From the NCBI GenBank assembly GCA_964608675.1, contig CAZSOZ010000003.1, positions 10,900-74,899 on the forward strand: DNA of 64,000 nt, written 5' to 3'. The first letter of the stretch is position 1. Each line of letters begins with the position of its first letter. Shown in pieces: positions 1 through 20,358 of this stretch. This DNA comes from an uncultured archaeon (GTDB lineage: Archaea > Iainarchaeota > Iainarchaeia > Iainarchaeales > 1-14-0-10-31-34). Position numbers and translations under genes: made by a program. The notes under the pieces are model-generated. The model searched no databases. It was not told the origin of the DNA and worked only from the letters and a program-made list of their open reading frames with translations.

Positions 1-3000
1 TAAAATTTGTTCTTCGCTTCCAATCAACAAATTTGTTTCAGTGAAATCTGAAATTTCTGCGTCAACTAATCCTTTAAAGGAATCAGTTAATTCAACTCCG
101 ATTATTGTTAACGGCATTTCAGTAATGTTTTTCAGAGTAATATCTCTTGTTATTCTTCTTTCAGGTTTTTTTGCATTAAAAGTTTCTTTTATTTCTGTTG
201 GCATAAAAGAAACAATGTTTTCTTTTACTTGAATTATTTTTTCTGTTGGATTGAATCCTGCTTTTTCTGCTGTAATAATTATTTCGGTTCCTGCATTTAA
301 TGGCTCAAAAGAATAAGCATAAATCCCTTTTGAATCTGTTTTTCCGATTGAAATTATTTCGTTGTCTTTTTTTATTTTAACTGTTGCTTCAATTAAATCA
401 TTTTCTTGTTTCTCAGCTAAATGTACTAATAAATTGTTTTGAATAAACGGCAGTAAATTTTTTGGGGAAGTTTCTATTTTCATGTTTTTTGCCATTGCAA
501 CTTCTGCTCTGATTGGATTAAACAATATTTTTTCTTTTCCTAAATTCAGGCTTTCTCCAAACAAACTGAAATCAATTCTGTTTGTTCCCTCGCTTTTTGT
601 TGTAAAATTAATTTTGCCTGAAATTTTTTGTCCTTTGGAAATAGTTCTTGTTGGAATAATTATTTTTCCTTCAGCGTTTTTTTGGATTCCTTCTATTTCA
701 TATGAATTTAATTCCAGTCCTTTTCCTTCTATTGCCAGTTCGCTGTTTGAATAACTTTTTTCGTTTATGCTGATTATATTGAATTCTATTTCATAATTGC
801 TTGAAATTTTTGCCGGAAACGAATCAACAATATTTGTTCTTGTTGCATTTGCTATATCTCTTACTGTAAAGCTTGTGCAAAAGTTTTCTGAACACAAACT
901 TGATGCCCCAATTTTTAATGGTTCATGCCTTGTTTCTGCATACAATGCCTGTTTTGCTGTAGTGCTTTCTGTTTCCTGTAATTCTTCGTCGAAAGGATCT
1001 CTTTGGTAGCCTGAATCAATTACCCATCCTCTGTAAGCTATTTCTAAAGGAGAACCGCTCAATAAATCTTTTACTTGAATTACTGTTTCAATTTCATATA
1101 CTCCTTCTTGAACGTCATTAAAAATCACATTTGTCCATTTAGCGTTTCCTGAAGTTAAATGGCTTGAATCAATTCCATAACCTGTATTGGGATTAAAGGT
1201 TGTTCCTTTAATTATTTTTGCGTTTGCAGCACTAATTTTTTTAATATACAAATCGTCTTTTTCCATTGTATTATTCTGGTTTTTTGTGTCTTCTCCTGTT
1301 CTTATATGAATTCCTGCTTCATTTGAATAAACTCCTTTTGGAATCATTAATTTAAATACTGCTTTGTATGTTTTTCCCTGATTGACTGTTTCGTCTTCCA
1401 GAGTTTCTCCGTTTAATTTTAGTTCCTCTAATTTTACTGCAAAAGAATTAATTGAATCCTCTAATACAATTGTTTTTTCTTCTGTTCCGTCAAACATTTG
1501 AATTGGTGCACTAATGTAATTTGAGTGCCCTGATTCATTCACTTCCAAAAAAACTTTTTTGTCTGCTCTTATATTAAAGCTTTTTTTGCCTTCAGTGTCA
1601 GTGGAATATCTTGCATATTCTTTTCCTGTAAAATAATCAATTACTTTTACTGTTGCTGACTGAATTGCCTGTTTTTCTTTATCCAATATAATTACATCCA
1701 AAGTTCCCTGCCCGATATTCAAAGTAATTGTAATATCCTGAGGTTCTTTTTCTTTTATTGTGATTTTTCGTGAATCTTTTCCTTCAAATCCTCTTTTTTC
1801 TGCACGAATAATGTATTCTCCTTCAGGAACTCTTTCAAACACTGCTTTTCCGTCAAAACCAGTTATTTTTTCTTCTCCAACAATATTCAAAGTTAATGCA
1901 TCTTTTAAGAAAATTTTAGTGTTTTCTACAGGCTGTCCTTTTTCATCCACTACACTTACATTTATTGCTCTTTTATTTGAAGGAGTTGCTTCCTTCAAAA
2001 CAAATTCAAAGTAATCCGCTGAAGGCAAAACATTTTTTGAATCAGAATTCAGATAATCAGGATGAGTGACTGAAGCAGAATAATTAATTTGCTCTGAAAC
2101 CTTAAAAATTGCATTACCGCTTGAATCAGTTCTTTTGTCTCTTAATTCTGCTCCATCTTTAAACAATTTAATTAAAGCATTTTCAATTGGATTTCCTTCA
2201 ATGTTTTTTACTTTAATTTTTATTTCTCCTATTATTCCTTCCTCTAAAACAATTTCAAATTCTTGATTCATGTTGTTTGAATTAATTGTCAAAGTTGTTG
2301 TTTGTTCCCTTGAATCATAATCTTTCCATTTTCCTGTCCAGTCGGTTGTTCTAATATAATAAGTTCCGAATGAAACTTCTGCTGAACACATTCCATTATA
2401 AGTTGAACAAGAATTTTCTTCTATTGTGCTTCCGATTGGAAGAGCCATTGCTTCTATTCCATTCAATAAATTTCCTTGTTTGTCCATTACAGTGAAATCA
2501 ATTATTCCTTTTTCTGTTTCATTTTCTTCCAAATAAATTTTGATTAAAGAAGTGTCTGCAGTAAAATCACAGTCTTCGCAGGTTTTTCCGAATGGTTCAG
2601 CTAAAATTGTTCCGCAGTCTGCAGGAACATCATTTAATTGAGTTGAACCAGTGTTTACGGTTATTGTTTCATTCCATTCGTTGTTCTGGGAACAATTAAA
2701 TCTTACAGTTAATTCTTCTTCAAGGAGTTCGTTTCCTTTTCCTAAAAGCTGGACTTCAATTGGCTGCATTACGCTTGGATTTAATTCAATTGTTCCGCTT
2801 TTTTTTTCTGCATCAAATTTTTTTGTTTCTTTTTTGAATCCTGTTTTTTCTGCGCTGACAGTAAACTCTTTTCCAATAACAACATTTAATTCAGCTTTTC
2901 CGTCTTCATTTGTCTGAACAATTTTTTTTTCTTCATTAACATAATAAGTTATTACTGCGTCTTCAACAGGAACGCTTCCATCATTTACAGTTAATTCAAA

Positions 3001-3216
3001 TGAAGTGGTTGTTTGAAGAATGCCTTCTCCTGACAAAATAAAATAAATTCCGGTTAAAAGTGCAAGCAGTAAAATCAAAAAAACAGGAAAGGAAGGAATG
3101 CTTTTTGATTCAATAAAATCAATGGCTTTATATACAGGAATTCCTGCTTTATCCAAGCCATCCATTAAATCATAATATTTTTCTTCTATTCCGGAATAAA
3201 TCTCTTTTACACCCAT
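1..3216 (-). CDS. Giant surface protein paralog (partial, continues beyond window start). It has an N-terminal cytoplasmic module plus signal-anchor and beta-sandwich repeats.
   Basis: No complete minus-strand ORF is listed for 1-3216 although there is a continuous reading frame. Hand translation from the ATG at 3214-3216 gives MGVKEIYSGIEEKYYDLMDGLDKAGIPVYKAIDFIESKSIPSFP followed by a hydrophobic stretch. This N-terminus is clearly paralogous to that of the 2481-aa ORF (EIY..IE.K.Y..D.LE.KG.PVY..ID.IE.K.IP.FP then a TM segment). Confidence 0.6.
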   Translation of the reverse strand, partial: MGVKEIYSGIEEKYYDLMDGLDKAGIPVYKAIDFIESKSIPSFPVFLILLLALLTGIYFILSGEGILQTTTSFELTVNDGSVPVEDAVITYYVNEEKKIVQTNEDGKAELNVVIGKEFTVSAEKTGFKKETKKFDAEKKSGTIELNPSVMQPIEVQLLGKGNELLEEELTVRFNCSQNNEWNETITVNTGSTQLNDVPADCGTILAEPFGKTCEDCDFTADTSLIKIYLEENETEKGIIDFTVMDKQGNLLNGIEAMALPIGSTIEENSCSTYNGMCSAEVSFGTYYIRTTDWTGKWKDYDSREQTTTLTINSNNMNQEFEIVLEEGIIGEIKIKVKNIEGNPIENALIKLFKDGAELRDKRTDSSGNAIFKVSEQINYSASVTHPDYLNSDSKNVLPSADYFEFVLKEATPSNKRAINVSVVDEKGQPVENTKIFLKDALTLNIVGEEKITGFDGKAVFERVPEGEYIIRAEKRGFEGKDSRKITIKEKEPQDITITLNIGQGTLDVIILDKEKQAIQSATVKVIDYFTGKEYARYSTDTEGKKSFNIRADKKVFLEVNESGHSNYISAPIQMFDGTEEKTIVLEDSINSFAVKLEELKLNGETLEDETVNQGKTYKAVFKLMIPKGVYSNEAGIHIRTGEDTKNQNNTMEKDDLYIKKISAANAKIIKGTTFNPNTGYGIDSSHLTSGNAKWTNVIFNDVQEGVYEIETVIQVKDLLSGSPLEIAYRGWVIDSGYQRDPFDEELQETESTTAKQALYAETRHEPLKIGASSLCSENFCTSFTVRDIANATRTNIVDSFPAKISSNYEIEFNIISINEKSYSNSELAIEGKGLELNSYEIEGIQKNAEGKIIIPTRTISKGQKISGKINFTTKSEGTNRIDFSLFGESLNLGKEKILFNPIRAEVAMAKNMKIETSPKNLLPFIQNNLLVHLAEKQENDLIEATVKIKKDNEIISIGKTDSKGIYAYSFEPLNAGTEIIITAEKAGFNPTEKIIQVKENIVSFMPTEIKETFNAKKPERRITRDITLKNITEMPLTIIGVELTDSFKGLVDAEISDFTETNLLIGSEEQIL

Positions 3217-3322: not shown

Positions 3323-5116
3323 TCAGCTTAAAGGTTTGCATCCTCCGGTGCTTTCTCCTATGCCGAAATCAGTTCCTTCGCTGAATTCATATCTTTCACA
3401 AATCCATTCATTTCTGTTGCAGGAATTGTTTGTTTCATTTTGCAGTCCGCAGGTTGTGCTGTTAACAAAAAATTGTTTTGTTTGATGAAATTTTTCTTCA
3501 GTTGAATTTGGAGTAAATTTGTTGTCAACAATTTTAATTACATAAACTGGTTCTTTTGTTTTGTCTATAATATAATTCTTGTTTTTTTCTTTGAATGCAA
3601 TGTTCACTTCAACTTTTGTTACTTCAGTGCAGGTTCCGTAATCTGCACTATAGTTGTCTGAAAAATCAGAAAAGCAAGGGCTGTCTTCTGAAGTCTTCTG
3701 AATTACTTCTCCTTGTTCATTTAATCCTATTCCATATTTTCCCCATGCATTCCCCCATTCCATAGGACAGCTTCCATCAACATTTGCTCCATAAGAATAT
3801 TCTGTTGCATTATCTAATTGAATGCTGTTAATTCCTTTTTGATTTATTTTAACTGAATTTCTTGCCCAGTCTTCTATTTTAATTGAAACAGAACTTTGGT
3901 TTGAAAGCATGCATGAAAAAGCAGAAGAAGAAATATTTTCTGCTTCATCCAAAATGAATTCATCTTTTGTTCCGTTTACTTTTGGGTCAAGATAATTTTC
4001 TGATGAATAATTGTTTCTTATAATTTCGCATAATCTTCTTGCAGTTAATTCCCTTAAAGCCTGCTGTTCGCTTGTTCTGTTTCCCATTAAAAATTCATCT
4101 ATTACAGGAATTTGCTGGTCTGCTTCTTGTTCAGTGCACATTCCTCTTTCTGCCATGCTTGAACTGCAAAAAATTTCTGTTTGTGTTTGATAAGCGTTTC
4201 CTGAAGGGCAGGGAACATCCATGTTTTTTTTTAGCGGAGAAACAAAAGGATTTTTTCTTATATTGCAGTACCCTGGATCACAGAAACCTAATTTCATTTC
4301 TTCTATTTCGTTGTGAATTCTTAAAGAAAACAACCCGTAATTTTCTTTCCATGTGTTTGCTTCTTCTTTTTCAAACTCTAATGCCAGTGCTCTGGATTCA
4401 GCCAAAGCTTTAAACAACCTGATTGGAATATAAATTTTTATGTTTCCTTTTGGAAAAATTGATTCCTGCAAAACCCTGTCAGTTCTTGGATTATAAATTT
4501 TTATTTGTGGAAAAGATTCATAGGTTTCCTCACTTATTTCTTCTATTTTTAAATTCAAATAAAATGTTCCAATACAATTTTTTGGGTTTCCGTTTTCGCA
4601 TTCAACTACTTCAAAAAAATTTCCTGAATCAACGCTTTTTTCAAACATTTTTTGCAGGGATTCAGTTAAAATTCTTCTCTGTTCTTCTGAAGTTTTTCCT
4701 TTATGAACTATTGAAATTTCATAAGGTCCCACAAACCTTTTTTGAGGCCATGATTCAATTAATGCATTGCTGATTTGCTCTGTGAATGCTGTTCCTCCTC
4801 CTGCTCCAAAAAATCTTTCTCCAAAGCGTTCTTTCATTTCATTAAAAGAGTCATCCAAAGGATAAATTGTTATTTCATTTTGTTGTACAAAAAAATATGA
4901 TTCCATTGTTTTTCTTAAAGAATAATTAAATGTCTGCAGTGCTTCTGCCCTGCTTAAGTCTGCCATTGCCTGCATTTCTGCTTGTTCTTCTATATTAGAA
5001 ATTAATTCTGTTCTGTCTCTTTCTGCTTTAATCATTGTCTGAACAATCATTGCAGTCAATAAAATTAATACAAATGAAACCAAAGCAGTAAACAAAGTGA
5101 ATCCTTTTTTATTCAT
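3323..5116 (-). CDS. Large (597 aa) prepilin-like secreted protein with a class-III/type-IV-pilin-like leader
   Basis: The N-terminus MNKKG|FTLFTALVSFVLILLTAMIVQ is a short basic leader, then Gly, then a roughly 20-aa hydrophobic segment, which is the prepilin-peptidase substrate architecture. A large Cys-containing hydrophilic body follows. The gene lies between the two giant paralogs. Confidence 0.6.
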   Translation of the reverse strand: MNKKGFTLFTALVSFVLILLTAMIVQTMIKAERDRTELISNIEEQAEMQAMADLSRAEALQTFNYSLRKTMESYFFVQQNEITIYPLDDSFNEMKERFGERFFGAGGGTAFTEQISNALIESWPQKRFVGPYEISIVHKGKTSEEQRRILTESLQKMFEKSVDSGNFFEVVECENGNPKNCIGTFYLNLKIEEISEETYESFPQIKIYNPRTDRVLQESIFPKGNIKIYIPIRLFKALAESRALALEFEKEEANTWKENYGLFSLRIHNEIEEMKLGFCDPGYCNIRKNPFVSPLKKNMDVPCPSGNAYQTQTEIFCSSSMAERGMCTEQEADQQIPVIDEFLMGNRTSEQQALRELTARRLCEIIRNNYSSENYLDPKVNGTKDEFILDEAENISSSAFSCMLSNQSSVSIKIEDWARNSVKINQKGINSIQLDNATEYSYGANVDGSCPMEWGNAWGKYGIGLNEQGEVIQKTSEDSPCFSDFSDNYSADYGTCTEVTKVEVNIAFKEKNKNYIIDKTKEPVYVIKIVDNKFTPNSTEEKFHQTKQFFVNSTTCGLQNETNNSCNRNEWICERYEFSEGTDFGIGESTGGCKPLS

Positions 5117-5150: not shown

Positions 5151-8100
5151 TTACTCGTTTTTTTCTTTTATTGCTTTTTGGTATATTTCAATTAGTTCCT
5201 GGCTTAACATTTCCGGTTCTGATTCACATGAATCTGAATCAAGTCTTTCTGAATTCTTTATGTTTGCTAAATTTTCGGATGCAACTTCAGAATAAGTGTA
5301 AATTGGTTTTCCTGTATTATATCCTGCTTTTATTTTAACTTTGTATGTTTTTCCTTTTTCAAATTCTATTGCATTTAATTCTGCTTCAGGTTCATTGATT
5401 TTGTCATAGTCGCCCATTAATGCATTTGCAAGCATCCATCCTGCTATTCCTCCAGCCATTGTTCCTCCGCTTCTCAAAAGCCCTTTGGCAAGCCTTGACC
5501 ATTTCGGATTTTTTGCTGAAAATGCTTCCAGTTTTGTTTGTTTGGAAACTGCTTGTTCTTGTCCTAATTGTTTTGTTATTGCTTTTTGTGATGCTCCTGA
5601 AGGGGCTTTTATTGTTTTTTTTGCTTGACTGATGTCATCAACTGTTTTATCTACAAACTTGTTTTTCATTTCTAAAAGTTTTTTTCCTTCAGGGGTTGCA
5701 GGATTTGCTTTTGCATCAACTTTTGCTCCCCAGTCTTCAATTCTTTTTATTAATCCTGTTTCAGCGTCTCCTGCGATTCCGTCAATTATAAAAGAAGGAT
5801 TTCTTCCGCTTCCAAGCCCTCCGACAGTATTTCTAAATGTTTCATCTACAAACATTTGAGCATTAATTCCTCTTCCCTGAACTCTTGTTTTTCCTATAGC
5901 TTTAATTAATTCATCATAAGCTGAATCAAATCCAGTATAATTAGGATCGGTTATTCCTTCTATTAAAATTCTTTTAGATCCTGTTATAGGCACTTTTATT
6001 TCAATAAATCTTTTTCCGGCAACATCAATTGTTTTTCTGAATCCAGGCACTTTAATTGGCTTTGCTGTGTCTGCATAAGTTCCTATTTTTGTTATTTCTG
6101 TTTTTGTTAAAGTTTTTTTGGCGCCATTGTATCCTGAAATATCTTTTTTTATTAATGAAAATTCGTCAATTAATTCTTTGTCTCCGATTGAAGCTAAAGC
6201 GTCTGCGGTTTCTTTTGCTTTTTTTGCTTCCTCGCTTAAAGGAAGAACATTTTTTATAGTTTCTTTTGCGCCTTGATTGATTGCATGAAGTTTAACGGTT
6301 TCCCTGAAAAACTCGTCGTTGCTTAATCCTGTTCCTTTTTGGACTTCTTCTAGTTCGCCTGCATCAATTCCTATTGATTTTAATCCTGTTTTAAATGAAT
6401 TTTCAGTTATTTCTTTTACTTCTTTTCCTGAAGAAAAAGCAGCAATTCCTATTGCAGGAGCTGTTCCAAAAAGCATTTCTTTTGCAATCATTCCTGCTCC
6501 AAGGGTTCCGCCTGTTGCTGCAGCAGTAATTGCAAACCCTGCAATAGAACCTATTCCGTATCCAACCAAACCCCATGCTTTTCTTTCATTTATCTGGCTT
6601 TGCCTTTGAGCTGAAGGGCTTTCTTTTGGATGCTTTAAATAATATGCATTCATTAAAACTTCAAACGGAATTTTGTTTGGTTCTCCCTTCCAGTCAATTG
6701 TTGCATAATAGTTTCCGGGCTTGCTTATTTCTTTGCTTCTTTCAATGAATTCAATTGGGCTGATTGAACATACTCCAAACTGCAGGGTTTTTTCTTTTAA
6801 TCCTGTGACATTTAATTTTAATTTAGAGTTTTTTGCCAGCCTTGGGTTTTCTGAGCCAGTAAAACAAAGCTTGAATTCAAATTCATAGTTTGTGCCTGCT
6901 TCCTTCCATTCCACGTTGTTTAAATTAAATTCTGTTTCTCCTTTGTTGGTTATTTCTCTTCCGTCAGAATACTTAAAGACGGTTTCATTTTTTTGTATTC
7001 CCTGCAGGTTTTCATTAACAAAATCAAGAGAAAGTTCTGCTTCAGGAGCATTTAATTTGCTTGACATTTTTAAGTCAACACAGTTTTCTGCATTAGGATA
7101 AAGATTAACAAAGTTTTCTGTTTCTATCCACTTCAAGTTTGCTATTTCAGAAATATTTTTAACTGAACCTAAAATCAAATAATCCATTTCACTTGAAATG
7201 CATCCTTGTTCTATTTTTCCGTTTTTCAGGTTTGAAATAATTAAGCCTGCTTCTCCTGCAATATCGTTTTGTATTTCTTCGCTTGAATTAAAATACTTAT
7301 CAGTTATGTATACGTCTATTTGTTTTGGTGTATTGCTTGCTCCGCTTCTTTCTATTTCTATTTTTACTATTCCTTTTGTTTGATCAAAGCTTCCTTTGCT
7401 TACTCTTATTAAATTATTTTCCTGATTTTGTGTTACTCTTGCTCCTTGATTGTCTTTGAATAAGGTTTTTGAAAAACTTTTTTGGAGTTCTTCTATTTCA
7501 GGATTTCTTATTATTAATCCAAGCCAGCTTCCGTTTCTTCTGCTTGGACTGTAGTCTTCGTTTACCGGCAGAAAGTTCATGAAATTTTGTATTCTGTTAT
7601 AGCATTCTGGTGTTTCTTCTCTGCTTCCTTCAATTTTTAACAGCAGGCTGACTGAATCTTTTCTTATTTCGTTTCCGTTTACTGCTACTGCTCCAATAAA
7701 TTTTGCCTGATATCTTCCGCATCCTCTTATTGACGGCAGTAACAGCAAATGTTCTCCGAATGATTTTCCTGCTGTTGAATACAATTCTTGTTCTGTTTCA
7801 CCGTGCCTTATATACAGGCTTTGTATTTCTTTTGCTCCTAATTTTTTTATTTCGCTTTCAAGCATGCTTGTTGTTAAATTATCGTTTTTGAAATAAAATT
7901 CAAATGATTCTGTTGTTATTCCCATTGCTCCGAATGAACAATAATCTTCAATTAAATTGCATTTTGCTCCTAAATTTTCAACGCTTTTTACATCTGATAT
8001 TCTTAACTGCGCTTTTCTTAATTCTTCTTCTATTTTTTCTGCTAAAAATCTTCCTAATTGTTGTGCATCACAGTAGCCTTGTCCGCAGTTTTCTGACTGC

Positions 8101-11100
8101 TTTGGAAAATAAACTGCTGTTGTTTCTGGTTTATCGCAGTAATCTAATGTTGTTTCGTTTTCCCATTTGCAGGGCTCGTTTTCGTTTCCGCATTCCCCTG
8201 AACCTTTTCCTATTGCTATTTCTATTTCAAAAGGCATTGAATGAATTGTTTTTGCAGGCATTGATTTTTCTCCTATTCCTATTACTTTTATTTTTATTTT
8301 TTGGTTTGCTTCTGATTCTTTTGTCAGCCTTAAAATGAATTCATCTTTTGTTCCTGGAGGCAGAGTGTATCCTGAATCAATTAAAGTTATGTTATTTCCT
8401 CCGATTTTTTCCGGTTCAATTCCTATTATTCTTACTGGTTCAACGCAGTTGTTTACAATATTTAAACTTTTGTCTATTGAACCAAATTCTGCGTTCGGAG
8501 AATTGAACAGCATGTCGTCTGACCATGCTTCCAAGCAACTCCAGCCTGCGCTTACATTTACAAATACATTTATTTCTCTTAACGCATATTGTCTTCCGTT
8601 GATTGTTCCTGACACAATTATTTTTCCTGTTATTCTTTGGTTTTCTGATGTATTGGTTTCTGCTTGAATTACTGCAGGCGGAATTAATGCCATTCCTCTT
8701 CTTAATTCTGGAACATTTCTTCCTTCACTGTATCCATAACTTACTGTTATTTTTGTGTTTGCAGGTTTATTGAATTCTGTTGCAAAAGTTAAATTTGTAA
8801 TGTCTGCTAAACCTGTATTTCTTATATACAGCGGATGAACTGCTGTTGCTTTTTCTTTTTGTTTGCTTTGAGTCAGCCATAATACAACTGAAGGACTTGC
8901 TTCTAATGCAAACATTTCATGCCATAAAATTATTCTTGCAGGAATGCTTTTGGTTAACTGCCTTGACGCCAAAAACAAATCGTAATCTAATTCATTTTGT
9001 CTTGCATAATTTCTTTGTATTTTGTTTATTACTCCTATTTTGATTGTTTTTACTTCGTCTTTTGCTATTTTTATTGTTCCTGAACTGAATTCTATTTCTT
9101 TGTCTGAATGGTTTTTTGGATGAACTTCTAATTCAAACTGCAGTGCCTGATTGCAGTTGTTTTTTAATCCTAATTCAAGTTCTTTTGAATTGCCTCCTGC
9201 TCCAATCAAGTATTCTTTTAATTCTGTTTTATCAAATTCAAGGCAGTCTTCTTTGAGTTTCTGGTTGTAGTTTGCTTTAATTTTTGTTTTTGTTTTTATT
9301 GGAATTCCTTCAATGAATCCTGTAATTATTATTTCTGCTTCTCCGTGGAATACTGCTGTATTTGTTCCTGAATACTCTAATATTATTTCTGTCTGGTTTT
9401 CTTCTTTTGCTGAAAGAACTGCAGGAGGATTAACGCTTAACTTAAATTGTTTTGGGAAATTTCCTGAAGGAATTATTTCTGCAGTAATTCCTTCAATTGT
9501 TTTTTCAGTTAAATTTTTTATTTGAATTCTTTTTGATGTAAACAAGTCTCCTGAAGGAATATTTATTTCTGCTTCTGATTCTATTTCAAGTCCTTCTCCA
9601 AATTCAATCTGGAGTTCTTTTTCTTTTGTTTTAAATTTGTCTGCTTTTATTTTAATTAAATAATTTCCTGCTTCAAGATTGTTTTCTATTCTGTATTTTC
9701 CGTTTCTTCCGTTTAATTCGTTTCCTGTAATTGTTTTTTCAAGCCTTCCTTTAATATTATAAAATTCTATTTCCGCGTTTTCTATTCCTTTTCCCTGATT
9801 GTCTTTTACGTTTATTTCAAAATCCTGTCCTTTTCTTGCTGTTTCTGGAGCTTGTATTTCCATTTTCTGTTCTTCAAATACTTTAAAATAAAAGTTTTCT
9901 GTCATTGAATCTTTTGGAGTCAATGCAATTGATTTAATTGAACTTTCCCCTGTTTTTTTTGCTTTAAAGTATACTCTTATTTTTGTTCCTTCTCTTGAAA
10001 TAATTTCCTTGAATTCAATTGAAGTATCGCTTTTATTGTTGTCTATAAACTGGCTGAATGAATTAACTTCTTTTCCTGTAAAACCTATTTTTGGGTTTTC
10101 TTTTGAAGTAGTAATCCTGAAAGTTGTTTCAACTGAAAGTCTTGCTTCTGCATTCATTTCCAGTGCATAAACTTTTCCTTTTACTGCAAAAAAATCTTTT
10201 TTGTCATATACTCTTTCGTCTTCGTCTTTCAAAACATATTCAATGCATGCTTCTTCCATGCATTCAGGTTCTGAATCATAGACTTTTATTTCTATTTCTT
10301 TTGTGTCTGCATATAATGCTTGTTTTTCTTCTGTGGTTTTTTCTTTTTCAAGAACTTCATCAAAGGGATTCCTGTAATAGTATCCGTCTGCATAACTCCA
10401 TGCCCTGAACTGCATTCTTATTGTTTGATGTGAAATTAATTCTCTTGCTTTAATTCTTACTTTAATTATTTTTGTTCCTTCTGGTTCATTGAAATATAAT
10501 TCAATAAACTTGTTTAGTTTTCCTCCTTGTCCTGAATTAGAGTAATCTATTTCCTGGTAGCCCGGGGAAGGATTTGGAGTAAAGCTTCTTCCATAAAAAT
10601 ACTTGTTTGTTGGTGCATCAAATCCTGTTATTCCTATGTCTTCAGAGTCAGCGTATTTAATTGAATCAATTCCTGTTCTGAAATGAATTCCTCCTGATTC
10701 AAGGCCTTTGCTCCATTCAGTTTTAAATTTTAAAATGTAATCTTTTCCTTTGGTTATTCCTTCAACTTCGTTTCCTGCAATATCATATGCTCCTAAAAAT
10801 TCAATGTTTGGAGTTTTTTCTGTGTATTTTCTTGCATCTAAATCAACTTCAATCTCTGTTTTGCCTTCTAAGTTTATTTCTTCTGAGTATTTTGTTCCAT
10901 CTTCTTTTGTTAATTCAAATTCAACAAAATTGCTTTCTCCTGCTTCAAATAAAATTTCTTCTTCTATTTCTCCGTCAAATAATATTTCTCCTGCCTGATT
11001 TTTAATTATCAGTGTTCCTTTTGTTATTTTTCCTTGTGCATCAAAAAATTTAATGCTTTTAACTGAATCCTTTTTTTCCAGTTTTATTATCATGTTGTTA

Positions 11101-12596
11101 TTGTTTTGTGATTTTATTTCAAGGGATTGTGTTCCCTGAAGCAAATCTTTTACTGCTTTAACTGTTATTTCTGCATCTCTAGGTACAGTTAAAGTGAATT
11201 TTCCGTTTTCGTTTGTTTTTTTTGCTTCGATTCCAAGAGGAACAAAAAATGCTTCATTTGAATCTCTTTTAGTAAAATAAAGTGTTGCGTTTGCAACAGG
11301 TTTTTCATTAAAGTCAACTACTATTATTGCTAATTCTCCTGAATTTTTTGCTGTTGCTTTAGTTAATTGAATTATTTCTGTTTCTTTTTCTATTTTTTTT
11401 GTTTCCGGAAGATATCCTTCTTTTTCTGCTCCTAAATAATATTCTTCTTCTTTTTCAAGTCCTTTGAATTCAGTTAACCCTTCATACAAAGTCGTGCTGG
11501 AATTAATTATTTTTTTTTCTGAATCAAACAAAGTTATTTTTGCACCAACTGCAGGATTTTGTGTTTCAGCATAAACTGCTTTTATTTTGATTTCTTTTCC
11601 GCCTTTTTCTAATTCTACTGCGCCTAAATTTTCTTCTTCGCTTCTTAAAGTAAATTCATTTGATTCAAATAATTTGTAGCCTTCTTTTTCTGCCGTAAAT
11701 CTTACTGCAATTCCTTTCGGAAAATTTTCAGAATAAACTCCTTCTGAAATAATTTTTTCGTCTATTAAGTCATTGCTTTCTGCGTCATAAACTTTTATTT
11801 TTGCGTTTTCAATTAATTCTCCTGTTTCTTTGTCAAACAAAGTTATAATCAGATTGCTTTCTCCTTCAAATGCCAGTTCTTTTGGGTTAAGGTAAATTGA
11901 TTTTGTTTCTTCTGATTCAAATGAAATTACTCCTGTGTGTTCATAATACGAGTCTGCTTCTGCTGTAATATATATGTCTTCTTCTAATGGCACATCCAAA
12001 AATTCAATTAATCCTTCTGAATTTGATACTGCGTCTTTTATTATTCCTTTCCATTCAATTGATGCTCTTACATTTGAAACAGGGGTTTCTGTTTCATAAT
12101 CATAAAATTTTATTTTTGCTTTAATTGTATTAATTATTTTTTTTAAATTTAATTCTGCTGTTTCTTTTTTGTTGATTACTTTTATTTTTGTTTCATCTGA
12201 TTCAAATCCCTGTTTTTGTGCAGTTATTGTGAGTTCTGCTCCTCCTTCTACCTTTACTTCAATCAGGTCTCCATTGTTTTTTATTCCTTTAAATATTTCT
12301 TTTTCTGTTGAATCAACTATTTTTATATTCACCTGGCTTAATCCTTTTCCGTATGAATCCACTAAATTTAATTCAATTTGCGCATCAAAGTTTGCTCCAA
12401 TTACTCCAAAGCCGAACACAACAAACAATAAAACTGCAATTAATGCAATGCTTAAAGGAAAAAAGGGAATTCCTTTTTCTTCTATTGGATCGATTAATGT
12501 ATAAACAGGAAGCCCTTTTTCTTCAAGAAAATCAAAGACTGAATAAAACTTGTCTTCTATTTCTGTGTATATTTTTCCTAATGTTTCTGAAATCAC
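5151..12596 (-). CDS. Giant (2481 aa) membrane-anchored surface protein with tandem beta-sandwich (Big/CarboxypepD_reg-like) repeats, a Cys-rich module and C-terminal Gly-zipper hydrophobic segments
   Basis: Single uninterrupted ORF. The N-terminus is a roughly 45-aa hydrophilic module followed by a TM segment (FFPLSIALIAVLLFVVFGFGVIGA). Many repeats follow, of roughly 80-100 aa each with alternating hydrophobic/polar beta-strand patterns. Late in the protein there are Gly-rich hydrophobic stretches (GYGIGSIAGFAITAAATGGTLGAGMIA and GGTMAGGIAGWMLANALMG). Confidence 0.8.
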   Translation of the reverse strand: MISETLGKIYTEIEDKFYSVFDFLEEKGLPVYTLIDPIEEKGIPFFPLSIALIAVLLFVVFGFGVIGANFDAQIELNLVDSYGKGLSQVNIKIVDSTEKEIFKGIKNNGDLIEVKVEGGAELTITAQKQGFESDETKIKVINKKETAELNLKKIINTIKAKIKFYDYETETPVSNVRASIEWKGIIKDAVSNSEGLIEFLDVPLEEDIYITAEADSYYEHTGVISFESEETKSIYLNPKELAFEGESNLIITLFDKETGELIENAKIKVYDAESNDLIDEKIISEGVYSENFPKGIAVRFTAEKEGYKLFESNEFTLRSEEENLGAVELEKGGKEIKIKAVYAETQNPAVGAKITLFDSEKKIINSSTTLYEGLTEFKGLEKEEEYYLGAEKEGYLPETKKIEKETEIIQLTKATAKNSGELAIIVVDFNEKPVANATLYFTKRDSNEAFFVPLGIEAKKTNENGKFTLTVPRDAEITVKAVKDLLQGTQSLEIKSQNNNNMIIKLEKKDSVKSIKFFDAQGKITKGTLIIKNQAGEILFDGEIEEEILFEAGESNFVEFELTKEDGTKYSEEINLEGKTEIEVDLDARKYTEKTPNIEFLGAYDIAGNEVEGITKGKDYILKFKTEWSKGLESGGIHFRTGIDSIKYADSEDIGITGFDAPTNKYFYGRSFTPNPSPGYQEIDYSNSGQGGKLNKFIELYFNEPEGTKIIKVRIKARELISHQTIRMQFRAWSYADGYYYRNPFDEVLEKEKTTEEKQALYADTKEIEIKVYDSEPECMEEACIEYVLKDEDERVYDKKDFFAVKGKVYALEMNAEARLSVETTFRITTSKENPKIGFTGKEVNSFSQFIDNNKSDTSIEFKEIISREGTKIRVYFKAKKTGESSIKSIALTPKDSMTENFYFKVFEEQKMEIQAPETARKGQDFEINVKDNQGKGIENAEIEFYNIKGRLEKTITGNELNGRNGKYRIENNLEAGNYLIKIKADKFKTKEKELQIEFGEGLEIESEAEINIPSGDLFTSKRIQIKNLTEKTIEGITAEIIPSGNFPKQFKLSVNPPAVLSAKEENQTEIILEYSGTNTAVFHGEAEIIITGFIEGIPIKTKTKIKANYNQKLKEDCLEFDKTELKEYLIGAGGNSKELELGLKNNCNQALQFELEVHPKNHSDKEIEFSSGTIKIAKDEVKTIKIGVINKIQRNYARQNELDYDLFLASRQLTKSIPARIILWHEMFALEASPSVVLWLTQSKQKEKATAVHPLYIRNTGLADITNLTFATEFNKPANTKITVSYGYSEGRNVPELRRGMALIPPAVIQAETNTSENQRITGKIIVSGTINGRQYALREINVFVNVSAGWSCLEAWSDDMLFNSPNAEFGSIDKSLNIVNNCVEPVRIIGIEPEKIGGNNITLIDSGYTLPPGTKDEFILRLTKESEANQKIKIKVIGIGEKSMPAKTIHSMPFEIEIAIGKGSGECGNENEPCKWENETTLDYCDKPETTAVYFPKQSENCGQGYCDAQQLGRFLAEKIEEELRKAQLRISDVKSVENLGAKCNLIEDYCSFGAMGITTESFEFYFKNDNLTTSMLESEIKKLGAKEIQSLYIRHGETEQELYSTAGKSFGEHLLLLPSIRGCGRYQAKFIGAVAVNGNEIRKDSVSLLLKIEGSREETPECYNRIQNFMNFLPVNEDYSPSRRNGSWLGLIIRNPEIEELQKSFSKTLFKDNQGARVTQNQENNLIRVSKGSFDQTKGIVKIEIERSGASNTPKQIDVYITDKYFNSSEEIQNDIAGEAGLIISNLKNGKIEQGCISSEMDYLILGSVKNISEIANLKWIETENFVNLYPNAENCVDLKMSSKLNAPEAELSLDFVNENLQGIQKNETVFKYSDGREITNKGETEFNLNNVEWKEAGTNYEFEFKLCFTGSENPRLAKNSKLKLNVTGLKEKTLQFGVCSISPIEFIERSKEISKPGNYYATIDWKGEPNKIPFEVLMNAYYLKHPKESPSAQRQSQINERKAWGLVGYGIGSIAGFAITAAATGGTLGAGMIAKEMLFGTAPAIGIAAFSSGKEVKEITENSFKTGLKSIGIDAGELEEVQKGTGLSNDEFFRETVKLHAINQGAKETIKNVLPLSEEAKKAKETADALASIGDKELIDEFSLIKKDISGYNGAKKTLTKTEITKIGTYADTAKPIKVPGFRKTIDVAGKRFIEIKVPITGSKRILIEGITDPNYTGFDSAYDELIKAIGKTRVQGRGINAQMFVDETFRNTVGGLGSGRNPSFIIDGIAGDAETGLIKRIEDWGAKVDAKANPATPEGKKLLEMKNKFVDKTVDDISQAKKTIKAPSGASQKAITKQLGQEQAVSKQTKLEAFSAKNPKWSRLAKGLLRSGGTMAGGIAGWMLANALMGDYDKINEPEAELNAIEFEKGKTYKVKIKAGYNTGKPIYTYSEVASENLANIKNSERLDSDSCESEPEMLSQELIEIYQKAIKEKNE

Positions 12597-12688: not shown

Positions 12689-13282
12689 TTATATTTTGTT
12701 TTTAATGCTTTCAGGAATTCCTTTGACTGACAAATAATACCATGCAAAATAGTATCCTGCAATCAACACAAACAATGAAATCCTGAACAATAAATCGTGT
12801 GCTAATTCAATTGTCTGCAAATCTGTTTTTTTAATCAAAAAAACAGTAATAATTATTCTTGCAGTATTAAACAAAAAGGTTGTAATGCCTGCTCCGATTA
12901 CCCCGATTGCTTTTTTTTCTTTTGTTATTTCTCCTGTTGCAATTACTGCTGAAGCCAGCACAATGAATTCCATTAATCCAGTGCATAAATAACTAATTTG
13001 AATTGAATAATTTTCAAACAAAATTAAAACAGGTTCCTGAAAAACAATTTTTCCTCCGGTAAAAACTGCAACTGCTTTTGCAGTAATTAATTCAATCCAT
13101 TCCAAAGGAATAAATGAAATCAAAAAAGAAAGAAAAACATAAAAGAAAACCAGAATTAAAACAAACTTTCCTACCTGAACTATTTTTTTGTCCATTAAAT
13201 TTAATTTAATCAGCAAAGTATTAAATATTCTTTTTTTTATAATTTTTTGCATGGCTGGAGTAATTGATTCATTTGCATTCAT
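12689..13282 (-). CDS. Putative exosortase/archaeosortase-family polytopic membrane protein (short form)
   Basis: 197 aa with multiple TM segments. It has a Cys inside a TM-flanked motif (ISYLCTGLMEF) and a downstream FNTARIIITVFL (Asn..Arg) motif. These resemble the conserved Cys/Arg/Asn core of the exosortase/archaeosortase family. This is a motif-level resemblance only. The true start may be an internal Met, because the ORF as listed overlaps the divergent gene by about 95 bp. Confidence 0.45.
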   Translation of the reverse strand: MNANESITPAMQKIIKKRIFNTLLIKLNLMDKKIVQVGKFVLILVFFYVFLSFLISFIPLEWIELITAKAVAVFTGGKIVFQEPVLILFENYSIQISYLCTGLMEFIVLASAVIATGEITKEKKAIGVIGAGITTFLFNTARIIITVFLIKKTDLQTIELAHDLLFRISLFVLIAGYYFAWYYLSVKGIPESIKNKI

Positions 13283-18993: not shown

Positions 18994-19500
18994 ATGGTTA
19001 ATCAAAAAGGACAGTCTTTTGAAGTATTTAATTTGTTGATTGGAGCAATTCTTGCTTTGGCTATTCTTGTAATTATTATTTCTATTATTAATTATCTTGA
19101 AGAAATCAAAGTTGATTCAAGCCTTGAAGCAATTGAACAAAAATTAAAGAATGCTTCTCAGTCTCCTGATGGACGTATTTTTGTTTCAAATGAAGTTGTT
19201 ATTCCAAAAGATTACAGTTTTAATTCAAAGCAGGTTTCAAAGATTTTGAATATTTCAGAGGAATGCGTTGAATTTGATTTTCCTCAGAACGCGAAATGGG
19301 CTGTTTATCCAAACAGTCCTGAACGAAACCTTGTTTTTTTTCCTAAGCGAATTGAAACAAATTTTTATGTTGTCTGCCAGTCTTCTGATGAAAGACTTTA
19401 CCATAGTGATTTTTCTTTAATGCAGTGCCCTGCAGATTCGTGTGTTGAATTCTGCTGTCTGCTTTCTTTTGGAGTGAATCCTAAAACAGCTAATGAATGA
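18994..19500 (+). CDS. Class-III signal peptide (type IV) pilin-like protein, Cys-rich
   Basis: The N-terminus MVNQKG|QSFEVFNLLIGAILALAILVIII is the archaeal prepilin motif (KG|Q plus hydrophobic helix). GGTGG Shine-Dalgarno lies 5 nt upstream. There are 7 Cys in the globular part. Confidence 0.75.
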   Translation: MVNQKGQSFEVFNLLIGAILALAILVIIISIINYLEEIKVDSSLEAIEQKLKNASQSPDGRIFVSNEVVIPKDYSFNSKQVSKILNISEECVEFDFPQNAKWAVYPNSPERNLVFFPKRIETNFYVVCQSSDERLYHSDFSLMQCPADSCVEFCCLLSFGVNPKTANE

Positions 19501-19559
19501 TTTCTTAAAACTAAAGCTTTAAATATTTCTTTGGTTTTCTTTTTAGTGGTGATGTTTTT

Positions 19560-20099: not shown

Positions 20100-20204
20100 A
20101 TTTTTAAGAAAAGTTTTAGCAAAATGTACAGCGTAAAAAACCGTACTCTCAAACTTATTTTTTTTTAATTAACTTTAAATACCAGTTTAGCCTTATTTTT
20201 TGTT

Positions 20205-20354: not shown

Positions 20355-20358
20355 TTTT

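What the first reader, a model, noticed from the sequence alone, without database searches (positions are those of the whole stretch)
3323..5116. 597-aa protein with a bacterial-style KKG|FTL prepilin leader sandwiched between the giant paralogs
MNKKG|FTLFTALVSFVLILLTAMIVQ closely resembles bacterial type IV (pseudo)pilin leaders (G|FTL(I/L)E). The other pilins in this window use the archaeal KG|Q form. A second protein (20918..21565) also uses MLG|FTL. The window therefore contains two leader classes, and the unusually large pilin-like protein is embedded in the giant-adhesin operon rather than in the pilin operon. This is consistent with a minor or tip pilin that couples the giants to a filament.
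Basis: seen in the sequence. Interest (0 to 1): 0.55.

Follow-up and report, generated by a model that had tools for sequence, protein, structure and literature searches.

The report
Large pilin-like protein between giant proteins
A 597-residue protein of a tiny DPANN archaeon (Iainarchaeota) starts like a pilus subunit. In more than a hundred related species its gene sits between genes for giant surface proteins, so it is probably a pilin-like partner of those giants, but this has not been shown by experiment.

Summary
Window 3323-5116 is a 597-aa ORF, but on the minus strand. It starts MNKKG|FTLFTAL..., and 2481-aa and 2501-aa paralogous giants flank it on the same strand.

The N-terminus is not a chance match. 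In 164 cluster representatives, -2 is K/R in 157, -1 is G/A in 163, and +1 is F in all. Position +5 is T or S, never E.

The sequence fits the archaeal class III (prepilin) motif of FlaFind 1.2. It fails the bacterial GFxxxE signature, so "bacterial-style" holds only for G|FTL.

AlphaFold2 (pLDDT 84) gives one helix over residues 3-74 and a Cys-rich head. The head has no match among solved (PDB) or predicted viral (BFVD) structures.

The family has no Pfam or NCBIfam model. I found it in 118 species genomes, nearly all Iainarchaeota. The order giant, this gene, giant is kept in 47 of 54 loci with both flanks. An exosortase-like gene and a type IV pilus operon often lie beside the module.

A second family in that operon (20918-21565) starts with invariant MLG|FTLSK and models as a pilin. 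Two leader classes are therefore real.

No experiment or tool shows cleavage, filament incorporation or the proposed tip-pilin coupling role. An uncleaved membrane anchor remains a serious rival.

The parts
3323..5116 (-). Target ORF, 597 aa, including the stop codon at 3323-3325. It is a pilin-like protein with a class III-type N-terminus and founds an unnamed family found almost only in Iainarchaeota.
   Evidence: ORF listing. 43 homologs, all annotated hypothetical. 200 clusters at 50% identity. 118 species genomes. No Pfam, NCBIfam, PHROGs or PDB sequence match above threshold.
5102..5116 (-). Leader codons, aa 1-5 (MNKKG). The proposed prepilin-peptidase cleavage site follows G5.
   Evidence: -2 is K/R in 157/164 and -1 is G/A in 163/164. 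The sequence matches the FlaFind 1.2 motif. Cleavage itself is inferred, not shown.
5033..5101 (-). Hydrophobic alpha1-N segment, aa 6-28 (FTLFTALVSFVLILLTAMIVQTM). It is the only predicted membrane-spanning segment and the most conserved part of the protein.
   Evidence: Hydropathy scan finds a single segment, 3-31. Mean majority-residue fraction is 0.76, against 0.31-0.39 in the variable parts of the head. F6, L8, F9, T10, A11 and L12 are invariant.
4895..5110 (-). One continuous N-terminal alpha-helix, aa 3-74, in the AlphaFold2 model.
   Evidence: Model ma80f8c9ddd8b: pLDDT 84.2, pTM 0.81, DSSP helix H3-74.
3326..4894 (-). Extracellular head, aa 75-597. It has a conserved core (aa 165-300, with motif G-L-F-S-P-R-I-H-N-E...C-D-x-G-Y-C) and a variable beta-rich C-terminal half. 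It carries 16 Cys and 12 N-X-S/T sequons.
   Evidence: Foldseek finds no similar structure in the PDB (best E 0.78) or BFVD (best E 0.65).
5151..12596 (-). Giant A, 2481 aa. It has a conserved N-terminal cytoplasmic segment, one membrane-spanning helix and CarboxypepD_reg/Ig-like domains. It lies immediately upstream of the target on the same strand.
   Evidence: A giant-like ORF lies upstream on the same strand in 59 of 67 related loci.
1..3216 (-). Giant B, a paralog of giant A. It starts at 3216 and is cut by the window edge. It is 2501 aa on the overlapping contig and is followed there by a third giant, called at 2194 aa and running past the end of the fetched locus.
   Evidence: A giant-like ORF lies downstream on the same strand in 62 of 66 loci.
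12689..13282 (-). Exosortase/archaeosortase-family membrane protein, first gene of the co-directional module.
   Evidence: TIGR04178 scores 32.9 bits (cutoff 23) and PF09721 scores 27.4 bits (cutoff 25.7). It lies upstream of giant A in at least 24 related loci.
14306..18918 (+). Divergently transcribed type IV pilus core: a FlaI/TadA-type ATPase (14306-16585) and a T2SSF/TadC-like platform protein (16585-18918).
   Evidence: PF00437 E 5.5e-17. The PF00482 hit (23.8 bits) falls just below its 25.2-bit cutoff. NCBIfam FlaI and TadA hits are also below cutoff. The same ATPase sits divergently at the edge of loci L024, L036, L046, L048 and L056.
18994..22757 (+). Run of pilin-like genes. Four have Q at +1: 18994-19500 and 19560-20099 (KG|Q), and 20359-20907 and 22038-22757 (RG|Q). 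One, 20918-21565, is of the MLG|FTLSK class.
   Evidence: My re-implementation of the FlaFind motif hits 18994 and 22038. The 20918 family N-terminus is invariant in 25 homologs. Its AF2 model has helix 2-53 plus a beta-sheet, pLDDT 87.
13188..14246 (+). Polytopic membrane protein (352 aa from the first TTG start; called at 331 aa on the overlapping contig) between the exosortase-like gene and the ATPase. It keeps this position in relatives.
   Evidence: and for the 331-aa gene call. Homologs sit in the same divergent position in L008, L044 and L069. No family hit.

Best explanation
The gene encodes a prepilin-like (class III signal peptide) modular protein that works as a dedicated partner of the neighbouring giant surface proteins in Iainarchaeota, a phylum of DPANN archaea.

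Proposed mechanism:
1. The protein is inserted N-in/C-out through its single hydrophobic segment (inferred).
2. An archaeal prepilin peptidase (PibD/FlaK/EppA type) removes the 5-residue leader MNKKG after Gly5, leaving Phe as the new N-terminus (inferred).
3. The 72-residue alpha1 helix then holds the glycosylated, disulfide-rich head at the cell surface. It does this either in the membrane, as in a bindosome-like assembly, or as a bulky minor subunit at one end of a short type IV pilus-like fibre built by the adjacent ATPase and platform (inferred).
4. The conserved core of the head (aa 165-300) contacts the giants or the machinery. The variable C-terminal half faces outward (inferred).

Shown: the sequence motif and its conservation, the predicted architecture, the conserved gene order, and the neighbourhood of pilus genes.

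Inferred: cleavage, localisation, and physical contact with the giants.
For: - Motif conservation. The [KR][GA]|F[TN]LFTAL motif is conserved across 164 cluster representatives that share only about 25-50% identity overall.
- Match to the archaeal definition. KGFT fits the FlaFind 1.2 motif (PMC4307647). Positions -2, -1 and +1 are the key positions for archaeal class III cleavage, and Glu5 is often absent in archaea (PMC3387779; PMC4471445).
- Membrane and surface features. There is one 23-residue hydrophobic stretch, 16 Cys and 12 sequons.
- Structure. The AF2 model has helix 3-74 followed by an alpha/beta head, pLDDT 84.2.
- Conservation profile. It is pilin-like, with alpha1-N the most conserved part (0.76) and the C-terminal half variable (0.31-0.37).
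- Gene order. Giant, target, giant is kept in 47 of 54 loci with both flanks and in all five loci fetched by exact protein match.
- Pilus neighbourhood. Type IV pilus genes (ATPase, mem352 or a KG|Q pilin) lie next to the module in at least 12 loci. That includes 10 of the 11 loci where at least 0.9 kb upstream of the exosortase-like gene is held.
- A second G|FTL family. It is encoded inside the pilus operon and models as a classic pilin. A peptidase that accepts G|F substrates is therefore plausible in this lineage.
- Precedent. Large archaeal proteins with class III signals that are not filament subunits are known, namely the Sulfolobus sugar-binding proteins of the bindosome (PMC2910488).
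Against: - No prepilin peptidase (Peptidase_A24) gene was found. The Pfam scans covered a subset of the window ORFs and found none. A crude G-x-[GH]-D motif scan of the window and about 85 related loci also found none.
- No pilin N-terminal profile reaches its cutoff. ComGF scores 19 bits against 80. Tad PF13400 scores 17.5 against 22.3. N_methyl, Tad and PilX_N appear in only 1-2 of 23 homologs.
- Asn at +2, seen in 62 of 164 members, is outside the FlaFind set.
- The helix is longer (72 aa) than the usual alpha1 of about 50 aa (PMC4471445).
- The head gives no Foldseek match to any pilin. I could not inspect coordinates to check that alpha1-C packs on a beta-meander.
- K/R before a membrane-spanning helix is also what the positive-inside rule predicts for a plain signal anchor.
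- The N-terminal 75-aa profile matches the whole 75 positions in nearly all of the 150 listed hits, which appear to be family members. No small pilin family sharing only the FTLFTAL alpha1-N was seen, and no homology to the 20918 family was detected. No obvious co-polymerising partner with a matching alpha1-N was found.
Confidence: 0.55

Rival explanations
1. Uncleaved type II signal-anchor. The N-terminus is simply a membrane-spanning helix that anchors an accessory subunit of a giant-protein complex. The strong conservation reflects helix-helix packing with the giants' own N-terminal membrane helices, not peptidase recognition or filament assembly.
For: - The giants each have a single N-terminal membrane helix with a conserved junction (IPxFP), so they sit in the same membrane in the same orientation.
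- K/R residues before the helix fit the positive-inside rule (established knowledge).
- No peptidase was found, and no pilin profile reaches its cutoff.
- The alpha1-N segment is unlike the operon's pilins.
Against: - A plain anchor does not explain the near-invariant G/A at -1 (163/164), the invariant F at +1, or a leader that is most often 5 residues.
- It also does not explain the same G|FTL junction in a separate protein of the pilus operon with a pilin fold.
- Nor does it explain the recurrent neighbourhood of pilus genes.
Confidence: 0.28
2. The protein is a true tip (or priming) minor pilin of the neighbouring KG|Q pilus, and it physically couples the giant proteins to that filament.
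For: - Everything listed for the best explanation applies.
- From established knowledge of bulky modular minor pilins (CofB/TcpB, GspK, S. sanguinis PilB/PilC; my own knowledge, not tested here), a 60-kDa head can fit only at a filament end.
- In L039, L040, L052 and L055 a KG|Q pilin gene directly precedes the exosortase-like gene and the giants on the same strand.
Against: - The giants carry their own membrane anchors and do not need a filament to stay on the cell.
- No contact between the target and the giants or pilins was tested.
- The target's alpha1-N (FTLFTALVSF) is out of register with the x-x-x-S-x-[FI]-[KN]-L-L-I pattern shared by the KG|Q pilins and the MLG|FTLSK protein.
- AR10-type genomes keep giant, target, giant without pilus genes in the flank seen.
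Confidence: 0.18
3. A bacterial-type pseudopilin acquired by horizontal transfer, for example from CPR bacteria in the same groundwater, which would explain the G|FTL junction.
For: - G|FTL is identical to the first residues of bacterial pilins.
- There are faint sub-threshold hits to ComGF, Tad and N_methyl.
- Three bins carry non-Iainarchaeota labels: Chloroflexota, Chloroflexi and Falkowbacteria.
Against: - Glu5 never occurs in 164 members.
- No bacterial model reaches its cutoff.
- Nearly all 118 genomes are Iainarchaeota, Diapherotrites or unclassified archaea. The odd bins carry the same archaeal gene order, which suggests mis-binning.
- F at +1 is within the archaeal FlaFind set.
Confidence: 0.03
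4. An ordinary Sec (class I) signal peptide, cleaved after the hydrophobic region to release a soluble secreted protein.
For: The N-terminus has a positively charged n-region followed by a hydrophobic region.
Against: - The hydrophobic stretch is about 23 residues and runs without a break into a helix that extends to residue 74.
- No small-x-small c-region follows it (sequence).
- The residues before, not after, the hydrophobic stretch are the invariant ones.
- SignalP was not available, so this rests on inspection.
Confidence: 0.03

Closest known systems
Archaeal class III signal peptide proteins as defined by FlaFind (archaellins, archaeal type IV pilins and other prepilin-peptidase substrates)
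   Same: - It has a short basic leader ending in K-G and F at +1, which FlaFind allows.
- About 21-23 hydrophobic residues follow, Glu5 is not needed, and there is a long N-terminal helix plus a head (PMC3387779; PMC4471445).
   Different: - It has 597 aa, against roughly 150-250 for typical pilins.
- It has a 72-residue helix, and its head matches no solved (PDB) or predicted viral (BFVD) structure in Foldseek.
- It has no profile match to any archaeal pilin family.
- It is encoded inside a giant-protein operon rather than the pilin operon.
[quoted passage not shown]
   Same: These are large, non-filament proteins that carry a prepilin-type signal, are processed by PibD, and stay at the cell surface in an assembly that depends on a pilus-like machine (PMC2910488). 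They are the best precedent for the idea that a large class III protein need not be a fibre subunit.
   Different: - There is no sequence or fold relationship, and no solute-binding domain.
- The context here is giant adhesin-like proteins, not ABC transporters.
Bulky modular or tip minor pilins of bacteria: GspK of type II secretion, CofB/TcpB of type IVb pili, PilB/PilC of Streptococcus sanguinis (from my own knowledge)
   Same: - The pilin-type N-terminus is grafted onto a large extra module.
- Like GspK, it lacks Glu5.
- In these systems such subunits sit at the fibre tip and mediate adhesion or priming.
   Different: - The lineage is archaeal, and no homology was detected.
- The 215-aa MLG|FTLSK neighbour, not the target, gave the only faint structural hit to a tip pseudopilin: GspI 3ci0_I, prob 0.77, E 0.27.
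- A tip location is untested.
Methanococcus maripaludis, with two prepilin classes and two peptidases (FlaK for archaellins, EppA for Q+1 DUF361 pilins)
   Same: It is a precedent for two leader classes in one archaeon. The window's KG|Q and RG|Q pilins resemble the Q+1 class (PMC2910488).
   Different: - The second class here is G|F, not the archaellin type.
- The window's pilins do not hit the DUF361/Class_IIIsignal Pfam model.
- The peptidases of this lineage were not identified.
TadE/TadG-like pseudopilins of the bacterial Tad pilus (PF13400)
   Same: There is a faint match of residues 7-38 to the TadE/G-like N-terminal model. TadG-type proteins are also large with a pilin-like hydrophobic N-terminus.
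   Different: The score of 17.5 bits is below the 22.3-bit gathering cutoff. Only 2 of 23 homologs show any hit. It is not a member on this evidence.
Large signal-peptide proteins predicted as 'minor pilin or adhesin' in archaeal type IV pilus loci (Makarova et al. 2016, PMC4858521)
   Same: This is the same idea: large, Cys-rich, secreted or class III proteins encoded with archaeal pilus machinery.
   Different: That census predates most DPANN genomes and does not mention Diapherotrites or DPANN. This family and its position between giants are not described there.

Membership tests
Archaeal class III signal peptide / type IV pilin-like proteins | Short hydrophilic leader with a charged residue at -2 and G/A at -1 (FlaFind 1.2 motif [KRDE][GA][ALIFQMVED][ILMVTAS]) | tested here: met
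   K-G-F-T matches the motif (PMC4307647). My re-implementation hits the ORF. Across the family, -2 is K/R in 157/164 and -1 is G/A in 163/164. Caveat: 62 of 164 members have N at +2, outside the FlaFind set.
Archaeal class III signal peptide / type IV pilin-like proteins | About 21 predominantly hydrophobic residues directly after the cleavage site | tested here: met
   Residues 6-28, mean Kyte-Doolittle 2.58 over the first 20 residues. It is the only hydrophobic segment in the protein.
Archaeal class III signal peptide / type IV pilin-like proteins | Lollipop architecture: an extended N-terminal alpha1 helix whose C-terminal half packs on a beta-sheet head | tested here: inconclusive
   AF2 gives helix 3-74 and then an alpha/beta head with a run of four strands at 185-230. 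Coordinates could not be inspected, and Foldseek found no pilin match.
Archaeal class III signal peptide / type IV pilin-like proteins | Match to a curated pilin or archaellin N-terminal profile (Pfam, NCBIfam) | tested here: not met
   No such family at E <= 0.1 in Pfam or NCBIfam, apart from sub-threshold ComGF (19.2 bits against 80).
Archaeal class III signal peptide / type IV pilin-like proteins | Leader removed by a prepilin peptidase (PibD/FlaK/EppA) | not testable with these tools
   No A24 peptidase was found among the window ORFs scanned against Pfam, and a crude motif scan of the window and fetched loci found none. The rest of the genome could not be read.
Archaeal class III signal peptide / type IV pilin-like proteins | Assembly depends on a type IV pilus ATPase and platform protein | not testable with these tools
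   Only genomic proximity is available. The ATPase and platform lie 9 kb away, divergently transcribed, in the window. Pilus genes lie next to the module in at least 12 related loci.
Bacterial type IV pilins and pseudopilins (GFxxxE; Pfam N_methyl PF07963, TIGR02532) | Gly at -1 and Phe (or another hydrophobic residue) at +1 | tested here: met
   G5|F6, followed by T-L.
Bacterial type IV pilins and pseudopilins (GFxxxE; Pfam N_methyl PF07963, TIGR02532) | Glu at +5 | tested here: not met
   +5 is Thr in the window protein. Across 164 members it is T in 161 and S in 3, never E or D.
Bacterial type IV pilins and pseudopilins (GFxxxE; Pfam N_methyl PF07963, TIGR02532) | Profile match at or above the curated cutoff | tested here: not met
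   Neither PF07963 nor TIGR02532 is listed for the protein. N_methyl appears in 2 of 23 homologs, with best E 0.009.
TadE/TadG-like pseudopilins (PF13400) | Profile match at or above the gathering score | tested here: not met
   17.5 bits against 22.3 for a 55-aa query. Only 2 of 23 homologs hit.
Exosortase/archaeosortase substrates | C-terminal tripartite signal: short motif, membrane-spanning helix, basic cluster | tested here: not met
   The C-terminus is ...GESTGGCKPLS, with no hydrophobic segment. The family ends in a conserved G-x-C.
Sec (class I) signal peptide proteins | An h-region of about 7-15 residues followed by a c-region with small residues at -3 and -1, cleaved on the outer side | tested here: inconclusive
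   By inspection, the hydrophobic run is 23 residues, continues as a helix to residue 74, and has no A-x-A-like site. No SignalP-type predictor was available.

The most novel reading that the evidence does not exclude
Iainarchaeota build a previously undescribed composite surface organelle. In this reading, three or more giant (2000-3000 aa) Ig-repeat proteins are organised by a dedicated large pilin-like subunit (this family), a small exosortase-like enzyme and a type IV pilus-like motor. Together they form the apparatus these DPANN archaea use to contact other cells or surfaces. A distinct G|F class of prepilin signals, shared with the MLG|FTLSK pilin, would mark the components that nucleate or cap the structure.
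Probability: 0.2. Interest if true: 0.75.

Novelty: new variant of a known kind. Interest (0 to 1): 0.5.

Why it matters
How DPANN archaea attach to and exploit other cells is largely unknown. Iainarchaeota have no cultured representative with a described surface apparatus.

This family gives a concrete, conserved handle. I found it in 118 species genomes. It always sits beside giant surface proteins and is often next to a pilus machine.

If the protein is a processed pilin-like subunit, it links two abundant but unconnected features of DPANN genomes: type IV pili and giant proteins. It would also define a second class of prepilin substrate (G|F) in this lineage.

If it is only a membrane anchor, it still marks a conserved giant-protein complex worth structural study.

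Either way, the claim can be tested with a simple peptidase co-expression assay.

Tried and rejected
- Known families. Pfam, NCBIfam and PHROGs scans of the full protein gave nothing above cutoff. Scanning only the N-terminal 55-75 aa gave faint, inconsistent hits to Tad, N_methyl, PilX_N and ComGF. I rejected these as evidence of membership.
- Structure search. Foldseek of the AF2 model gave no match with E <= 0.001 against the PDB (best E 0.78) or BFVD (best E 0.65). A PDB profile search with A1 gave no hit.
- Small pilins with the same alpha1-N. A search of 1.84 billion representatives with the 75-aa N-terminal profile gave 200 hits. Nearly all of the 150 listed match essentially the whole 75-position profile and appear to be family members, full-length or fragments. 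A motif scan of the window and the first five loci found only the target.
- Homology between the two G|FTL families. hhalign of A1 against A3 gave probability 0.2%. They share the junction only.
- Prepilin peptidase. The Pfam scans covered a subset of the window ORFs, not all of them, and found none. A G-x-[GH]-D plus multi-TM scan of the window and about 85 related loci gave one unconvincing hit. I could not read the rest of the genome, and the look-up meant to extend past the far end of the window found nothing.
- Exosortase substrate. I rejected this idea because the target has no C-terminal membrane helix or basic tail.
- Giants as prepilins. Giant A classes have [KR]G|IP, but P at +2 and non-G/A residues at -1 in the B and C classes argue against it.
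- Literature. Searches on Iainarchaeota or Diapherotrites with pili, archaeosortase, giant proteins or prepilin peptidase found no description of this family or locus.
- Bacterial-type terminator and promoter scan of 3000-5400. It was uninformative for an archaeon. No terminator was found on the minus strand between the three genes.
Full report
**1. What is at the coordinates**

Window 3323..5116 holds one 597-aa ORF with an ATG start, on the minus strand. The finding gave no strand. The product begins MNKKGFTLFTALVSFVLILLTAMIVQTMIKAERDRTE.

A 2481-aa ORF ends 34 nt upstream on the same strand (5151..12596). A second giant starts 106 nt downstream at 3216 and runs off the window. On an overlapping Logan contig that encodes the identical protein, that second giant is 2501 aa. 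A third giant follows it there, called at 2194 aa and running past the end of the fetched locus.

The two flanking giants are paralogs, with 26% identity over 836 aa and E 9e-34. Both carry CarboxypepD_reg and Ig-like domains. "Sandwiched between the giant paralogs" is therefore correct.

The window has about 31% G+C. Its closest relatives are metagenome bins labelled Candidatus Iainarchaeum, Diapherotrites or "archaeon". It comes from a DPANN archaeon of the phylum Iainarchaeota.

**2. Is the N-terminal motif real**

All 43 homologs from the word-indexed search carry the same start.

An exhaustive profile search with the first 75 residues found 200 clusters at 50% identity, 172 of them with E <= 1e-10. 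In 164 representatives with an intact N-terminus:
- -2 is K or R in 157.
- -1 is G or A in 163.
- +1 is F in all. The selection pattern fixed this position, but the intact sequences it missed also have F there.
- +2 is T in 101 and N in 62.
- +4 is F in all.
- +5 is T in 161 and S in 3.

The commonest annotated leader is 5 residues.

These proteins share only about 25-50% identity overall. The hydrophobic segment is the most conserved part, with a majority-residue fraction of 0.76, against 0.31-0.39 in most of the head. This is selection, not chance.

**3. Which kind of signal**

Reviews give the archaeal rule. The key positions are -2, -1 and +1. A positive charge at -2 is typical of archaea. 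Glu at +5 is often absent (PMC3387779; PMC4471445).

The FlaFind 1.2 motif is [KRDE][GA][ALIFQMVED][ILMVTAS] (PMC4307647). K-G-F-T satisfies it. A simple re-implementation (motif plus a hydrophobic stretch) picks the ORF out of the window, together with two of the Q+1 pilins and three likely false positives.

The bacterial signature is not met:
- Glu5 never occurs in the family.
- Neither Pfam N_methyl nor TIGR02532 is reported for the protein.
- The faint hits are below cutoff and inconsistent among homologs. These are ComGF (E 1e-3, 19 bits against 80), Tad PF13400 (17.5 bits against 22.3), and N_methyl, Tad or PilX_N in 1-2 of 23 homologs.

The leader is best described as an archaeal class III-type signal whose first three mature residues happen to equal the bacterial F-T-L.

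A Sec-type signal is unlikely. The hydrophobic run is 23 residues and continues without a break as a helix to residue 74. The invariant residues lie before it, not after it. I had no SignalP-type predictor, so this rests on inspection.

**4. Predicted structure**

AlphaFold2 with a 28-sequence alignment gave mean pLDDT 84.2 and pTM 0.81. The model has these parts:
- A single helix spans residues 3-74.
- An alpha/beta region follows and contains four successive strands at 185-230.
- A helix spans 347-371.
- A beta-rich C-terminal half has long strands.

The protein has one hydrophobic segment, 16 cysteines (eight of them invariant in the alignment) and 12 N-X-S/T sequons. That fits an extracellular, disulfide-bonded, glycosylated head.

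Foldseek found nothing similar in the PDB (best E 0.78) or in BFVD (best E 0.65). A PDB sequence-profile search was empty.

I could not inspect coordinates to confirm pilin-type packing.

**5. The second G|FTL protein and the two leader classes**

ORF 20918..21565 (215 aa) lies inside the pilin run of the divergent operon. Its 25 homologs all begin MLGFTLSK[ILM]NLL.

It fails the FlaFind motif because -2 is Leu, and its leader is only three residues. PibD is reported to cut leaders as short as 3-4 residues, whereas FlaK needs at least five (PMC4307647).

Its AF2 model (pLDDT 87) has helix 2-53 followed by a beta-sheet, the classic pilin layout. The only PDB hit with a sizeable target-normalised TM-score is the tip pseudopilin GspI (3ci0_I, prob 0.77, TMt 0.62). 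With E 0.27 this is a lead, not a finding.

Counted from the putative cleavage site, this protein shares S4 and L8-L9-I10 with the KG|Q pilins. The target's alpha1-N (FTLFTALVSF) does not. Profile-profile comparison finds no homology between the two G|FTL families.

The other pilin-like ORFs have Q at +1. This resembles the Q+1 class that the dedicated peptidase EppA cuts in Methanococcus, a precedent for two classes in one archaeon (PMC2910488).

**6. Genomic context across the lineage**

A scan of one genome per species found relatives in 118 genomes, and 79 loci were kept.

By tblastn with the window's proteins:
- A giant-like ORF lies upstream on the same strand in 59 of 67 loci with at least 1.5 kb of upstream flank.
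- A giant-like ORF lies downstream on the same strand in 62 of 66.
- Giants lie on both sides in 47 of 54.

The five loci fetched by exact protein match show the same order, including the distant P0043 and P0034.

An exosortase/archaeosortase-family gene precedes giant A in at least 24 loci. In the window it is 12689..13282, with TIGR04178 above cutoff.

Further upstream, where sequence is held:
- The FlaI/TadA-type ATPase lies divergently in L024, L036, L046, L048 and L056.
- A homolog of the window's 352-aa membrane protein, which sits between the exosortase-like gene and the ATPase, lies divergently in L008, L044 and L069.
- A KG|Q pilin lies on the same strand directly before the exosortase-like gene in L039, L040, L052 and L055.

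That is 10 of the 11 loci with at least 0.9 kb visible upstream of the exosortase-like gene.

The link is not universal. AR10-type loci show unrelated genes there.

The conserved core is giant, target, giant. The looser super-module adds the exosortase-like gene and a type IV pilus operon.

**7. How it most likely works**

The evidence best fits a prepilin-like modular protein that is a dedicated partner of the giants. It would be inserted N-in/C-out and trimmed after Gly5 by an archaeal prepilin peptidase. Its long alpha1 would then hold it in the membrane or at an end of a short pilus-like assembly. The conserved core (aa 165-300) would face its partners and the variable C-terminal half would face outward.

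The steps shown are the motif, its conservation, the predicted architecture and the gene neighbourhood. Cleavage, localisation and partner contacts are inferred.

I give this 0.55.

The main rival, at 0.28, is an uncleaved signal anchor whose conserved helix packs against the giants' own N-terminal membrane helices. It explains the missing peptidase and missing pilin-profile hits. It does not explain the invariant G/A at -1, the F at +1, or the same junction in a pilin-fold protein of the pilus operon.

It is compatible with what is known of bulky minor pilins (my own knowledge). It is weakened because the giants have their own anchors and because the target's alpha1-N does not match the operon's pilins.

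Horizontal transfer of a bacterial pseudopilin and a Sec signal are each unlikely, at about 0.03.

**8. Comparison with what is known**

The protein works like a class III signal protein. On sequence rules it qualifies as FlaFind-positive. It is not a member of any curated pilin family, and it fails the defining Glu5 of bacterial pilins.

The nearest functional precedents are:
- The Sulfolobus sugar-binding proteins (large, PibD-processed, surface-retained; PMC2910488).
- Bulky modular or tip minor pilins of bacteria (GspK, CofB/TcpB, S. sanguinis PilB/PilC; my own knowledge).
- The "large signal-peptide protein, minor pilin or adhesin" predicted in some archaeal pilus loci (PMC4858521).

None of these shares sequence or fold with it.

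I found no paper describing this family, the MLG|FTLSK family, or the giant, pilin-like, giant arrangement in Iainarchaeota. The library lacks most subscription journals, so this is absence of evidence only.

**9. Verdict**

The protein is a new variant of a known kind: a lineage-specific, large, pilin-like protein with a head that matches no solved (PDB) or predicted viral (BFVD) structure and an unusually strict genomic partnership with giant surface proteins.

Interest is moderate, at 0.5. The find is not surprising in principle, because class III signals on large archaeal proteins are known. It does give a well-defined, widely conserved and easily testable entry point to the surface apparatus of an uncultured DPANN phylum.

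Noticed in passing
window 12689-13282 (-): A small (197 aa) exosortase/archaeosortase-family gene is the first gene of the giant-protein module. It keeps that position in at least 24 related loci. Neither the giants nor the target has the usual C-terminal sorting signal, so its substrate is unknown.
   Followed up: partly
window 12470-12596 (-) and 3076-3216 (-); also L001-L005, L040, L055: All giants (three paralog classes) share a conserved 40-47 aa N-terminal cytoplasmic segment (..lE.K[FY]Y...D.L...GIPvY...D.iE..) followed by IPxFP and one membrane-spanning helix. In the giant A class the junction reads [KR]G|IP, which looks class III-like. Pro at +2 and non-G/A residues at -1 in the other classes argue against cleavage.
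   Followed up: partly
window 5151-6700 (-), C-terminal ~500 aa of giant A: Glycine-zipper-like hydrophobic segments (WGLVGYGIGSIAGFAITAAATGG..., GGTMAGGIAGWMLANALMG) sit in an otherwise Lys-rich tail. A similar segment recurs in the upstream giant of L001. No family hit was found.
   Followed up: no
window 20918-21565 (+): This 215-aa protein has an invariant MLGFTLSK[ILM]NLL N-terminus in 25 homologs, a three-residue leader and Lys at +5. Its AF2 model is pilin-like. It has a weak Foldseek similarity to the tip pseudopilin GspI (3ci0_I, prob 0.77, E 0.27).
   Followed up: yes
window 24154-28626 (+): This 1490-aa protein lies at the end of the pilin operon. It has a Sec-like N-terminus, and its C-terminus (...PSLPES, a membrane helix, then KKKK) looks like an exosortase-type tripartite sorting signal. 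No NCBIfam CTERM model matched it. It is a candidate substrate for the exosortase-like enzyme.
   Followed up: partly
window 31393-34597 (-): A second type IV pilus-like set (a 471-aa T2SSE ATPase plus two T2SSF/TadC-like proteins) has no pilin gene beside it. It could serve pilin-like proteins encoded elsewhere, including the target.
   Followed up: no
window 13188-14246 (+): A polytopic membrane protein with no family match lies between the exosortase-like gene and the pilus ATPase. Homologs sit in the same position in L008, L044 and L069.
   Followed up: partly
window 39541-42684 (-): This 1047-aa surface protein has fibronectin type III and Ig-like domains, an N-terminal signal, and a C-terminal membrane helix followed by a long tail.
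   Followed up: no
window 48300-63300: A large nucleotide-sugar and glycosylation cluster: NAD-dependent epimerase/dehydratase-like, nucleotidyltransferase-like and UDP-glucose dehydrogenase-like ORFs, a glycosyltransferase-like ORF and a flippase-like ORF, judged by eye from the translations. It is consistent with heavy glycosylation of the surface proteins encoded nearby.
   Followed up: no
L021, L025, L029, L031: Contigs carrying the archaeal giant, target, giant module are deposited in bins labelled Chloroflexota, Chloroflexi, Thaumarchaeota and Falkowbacteria. These are probably mis-binned Iainarchaeota contigs.
   Followed up: no
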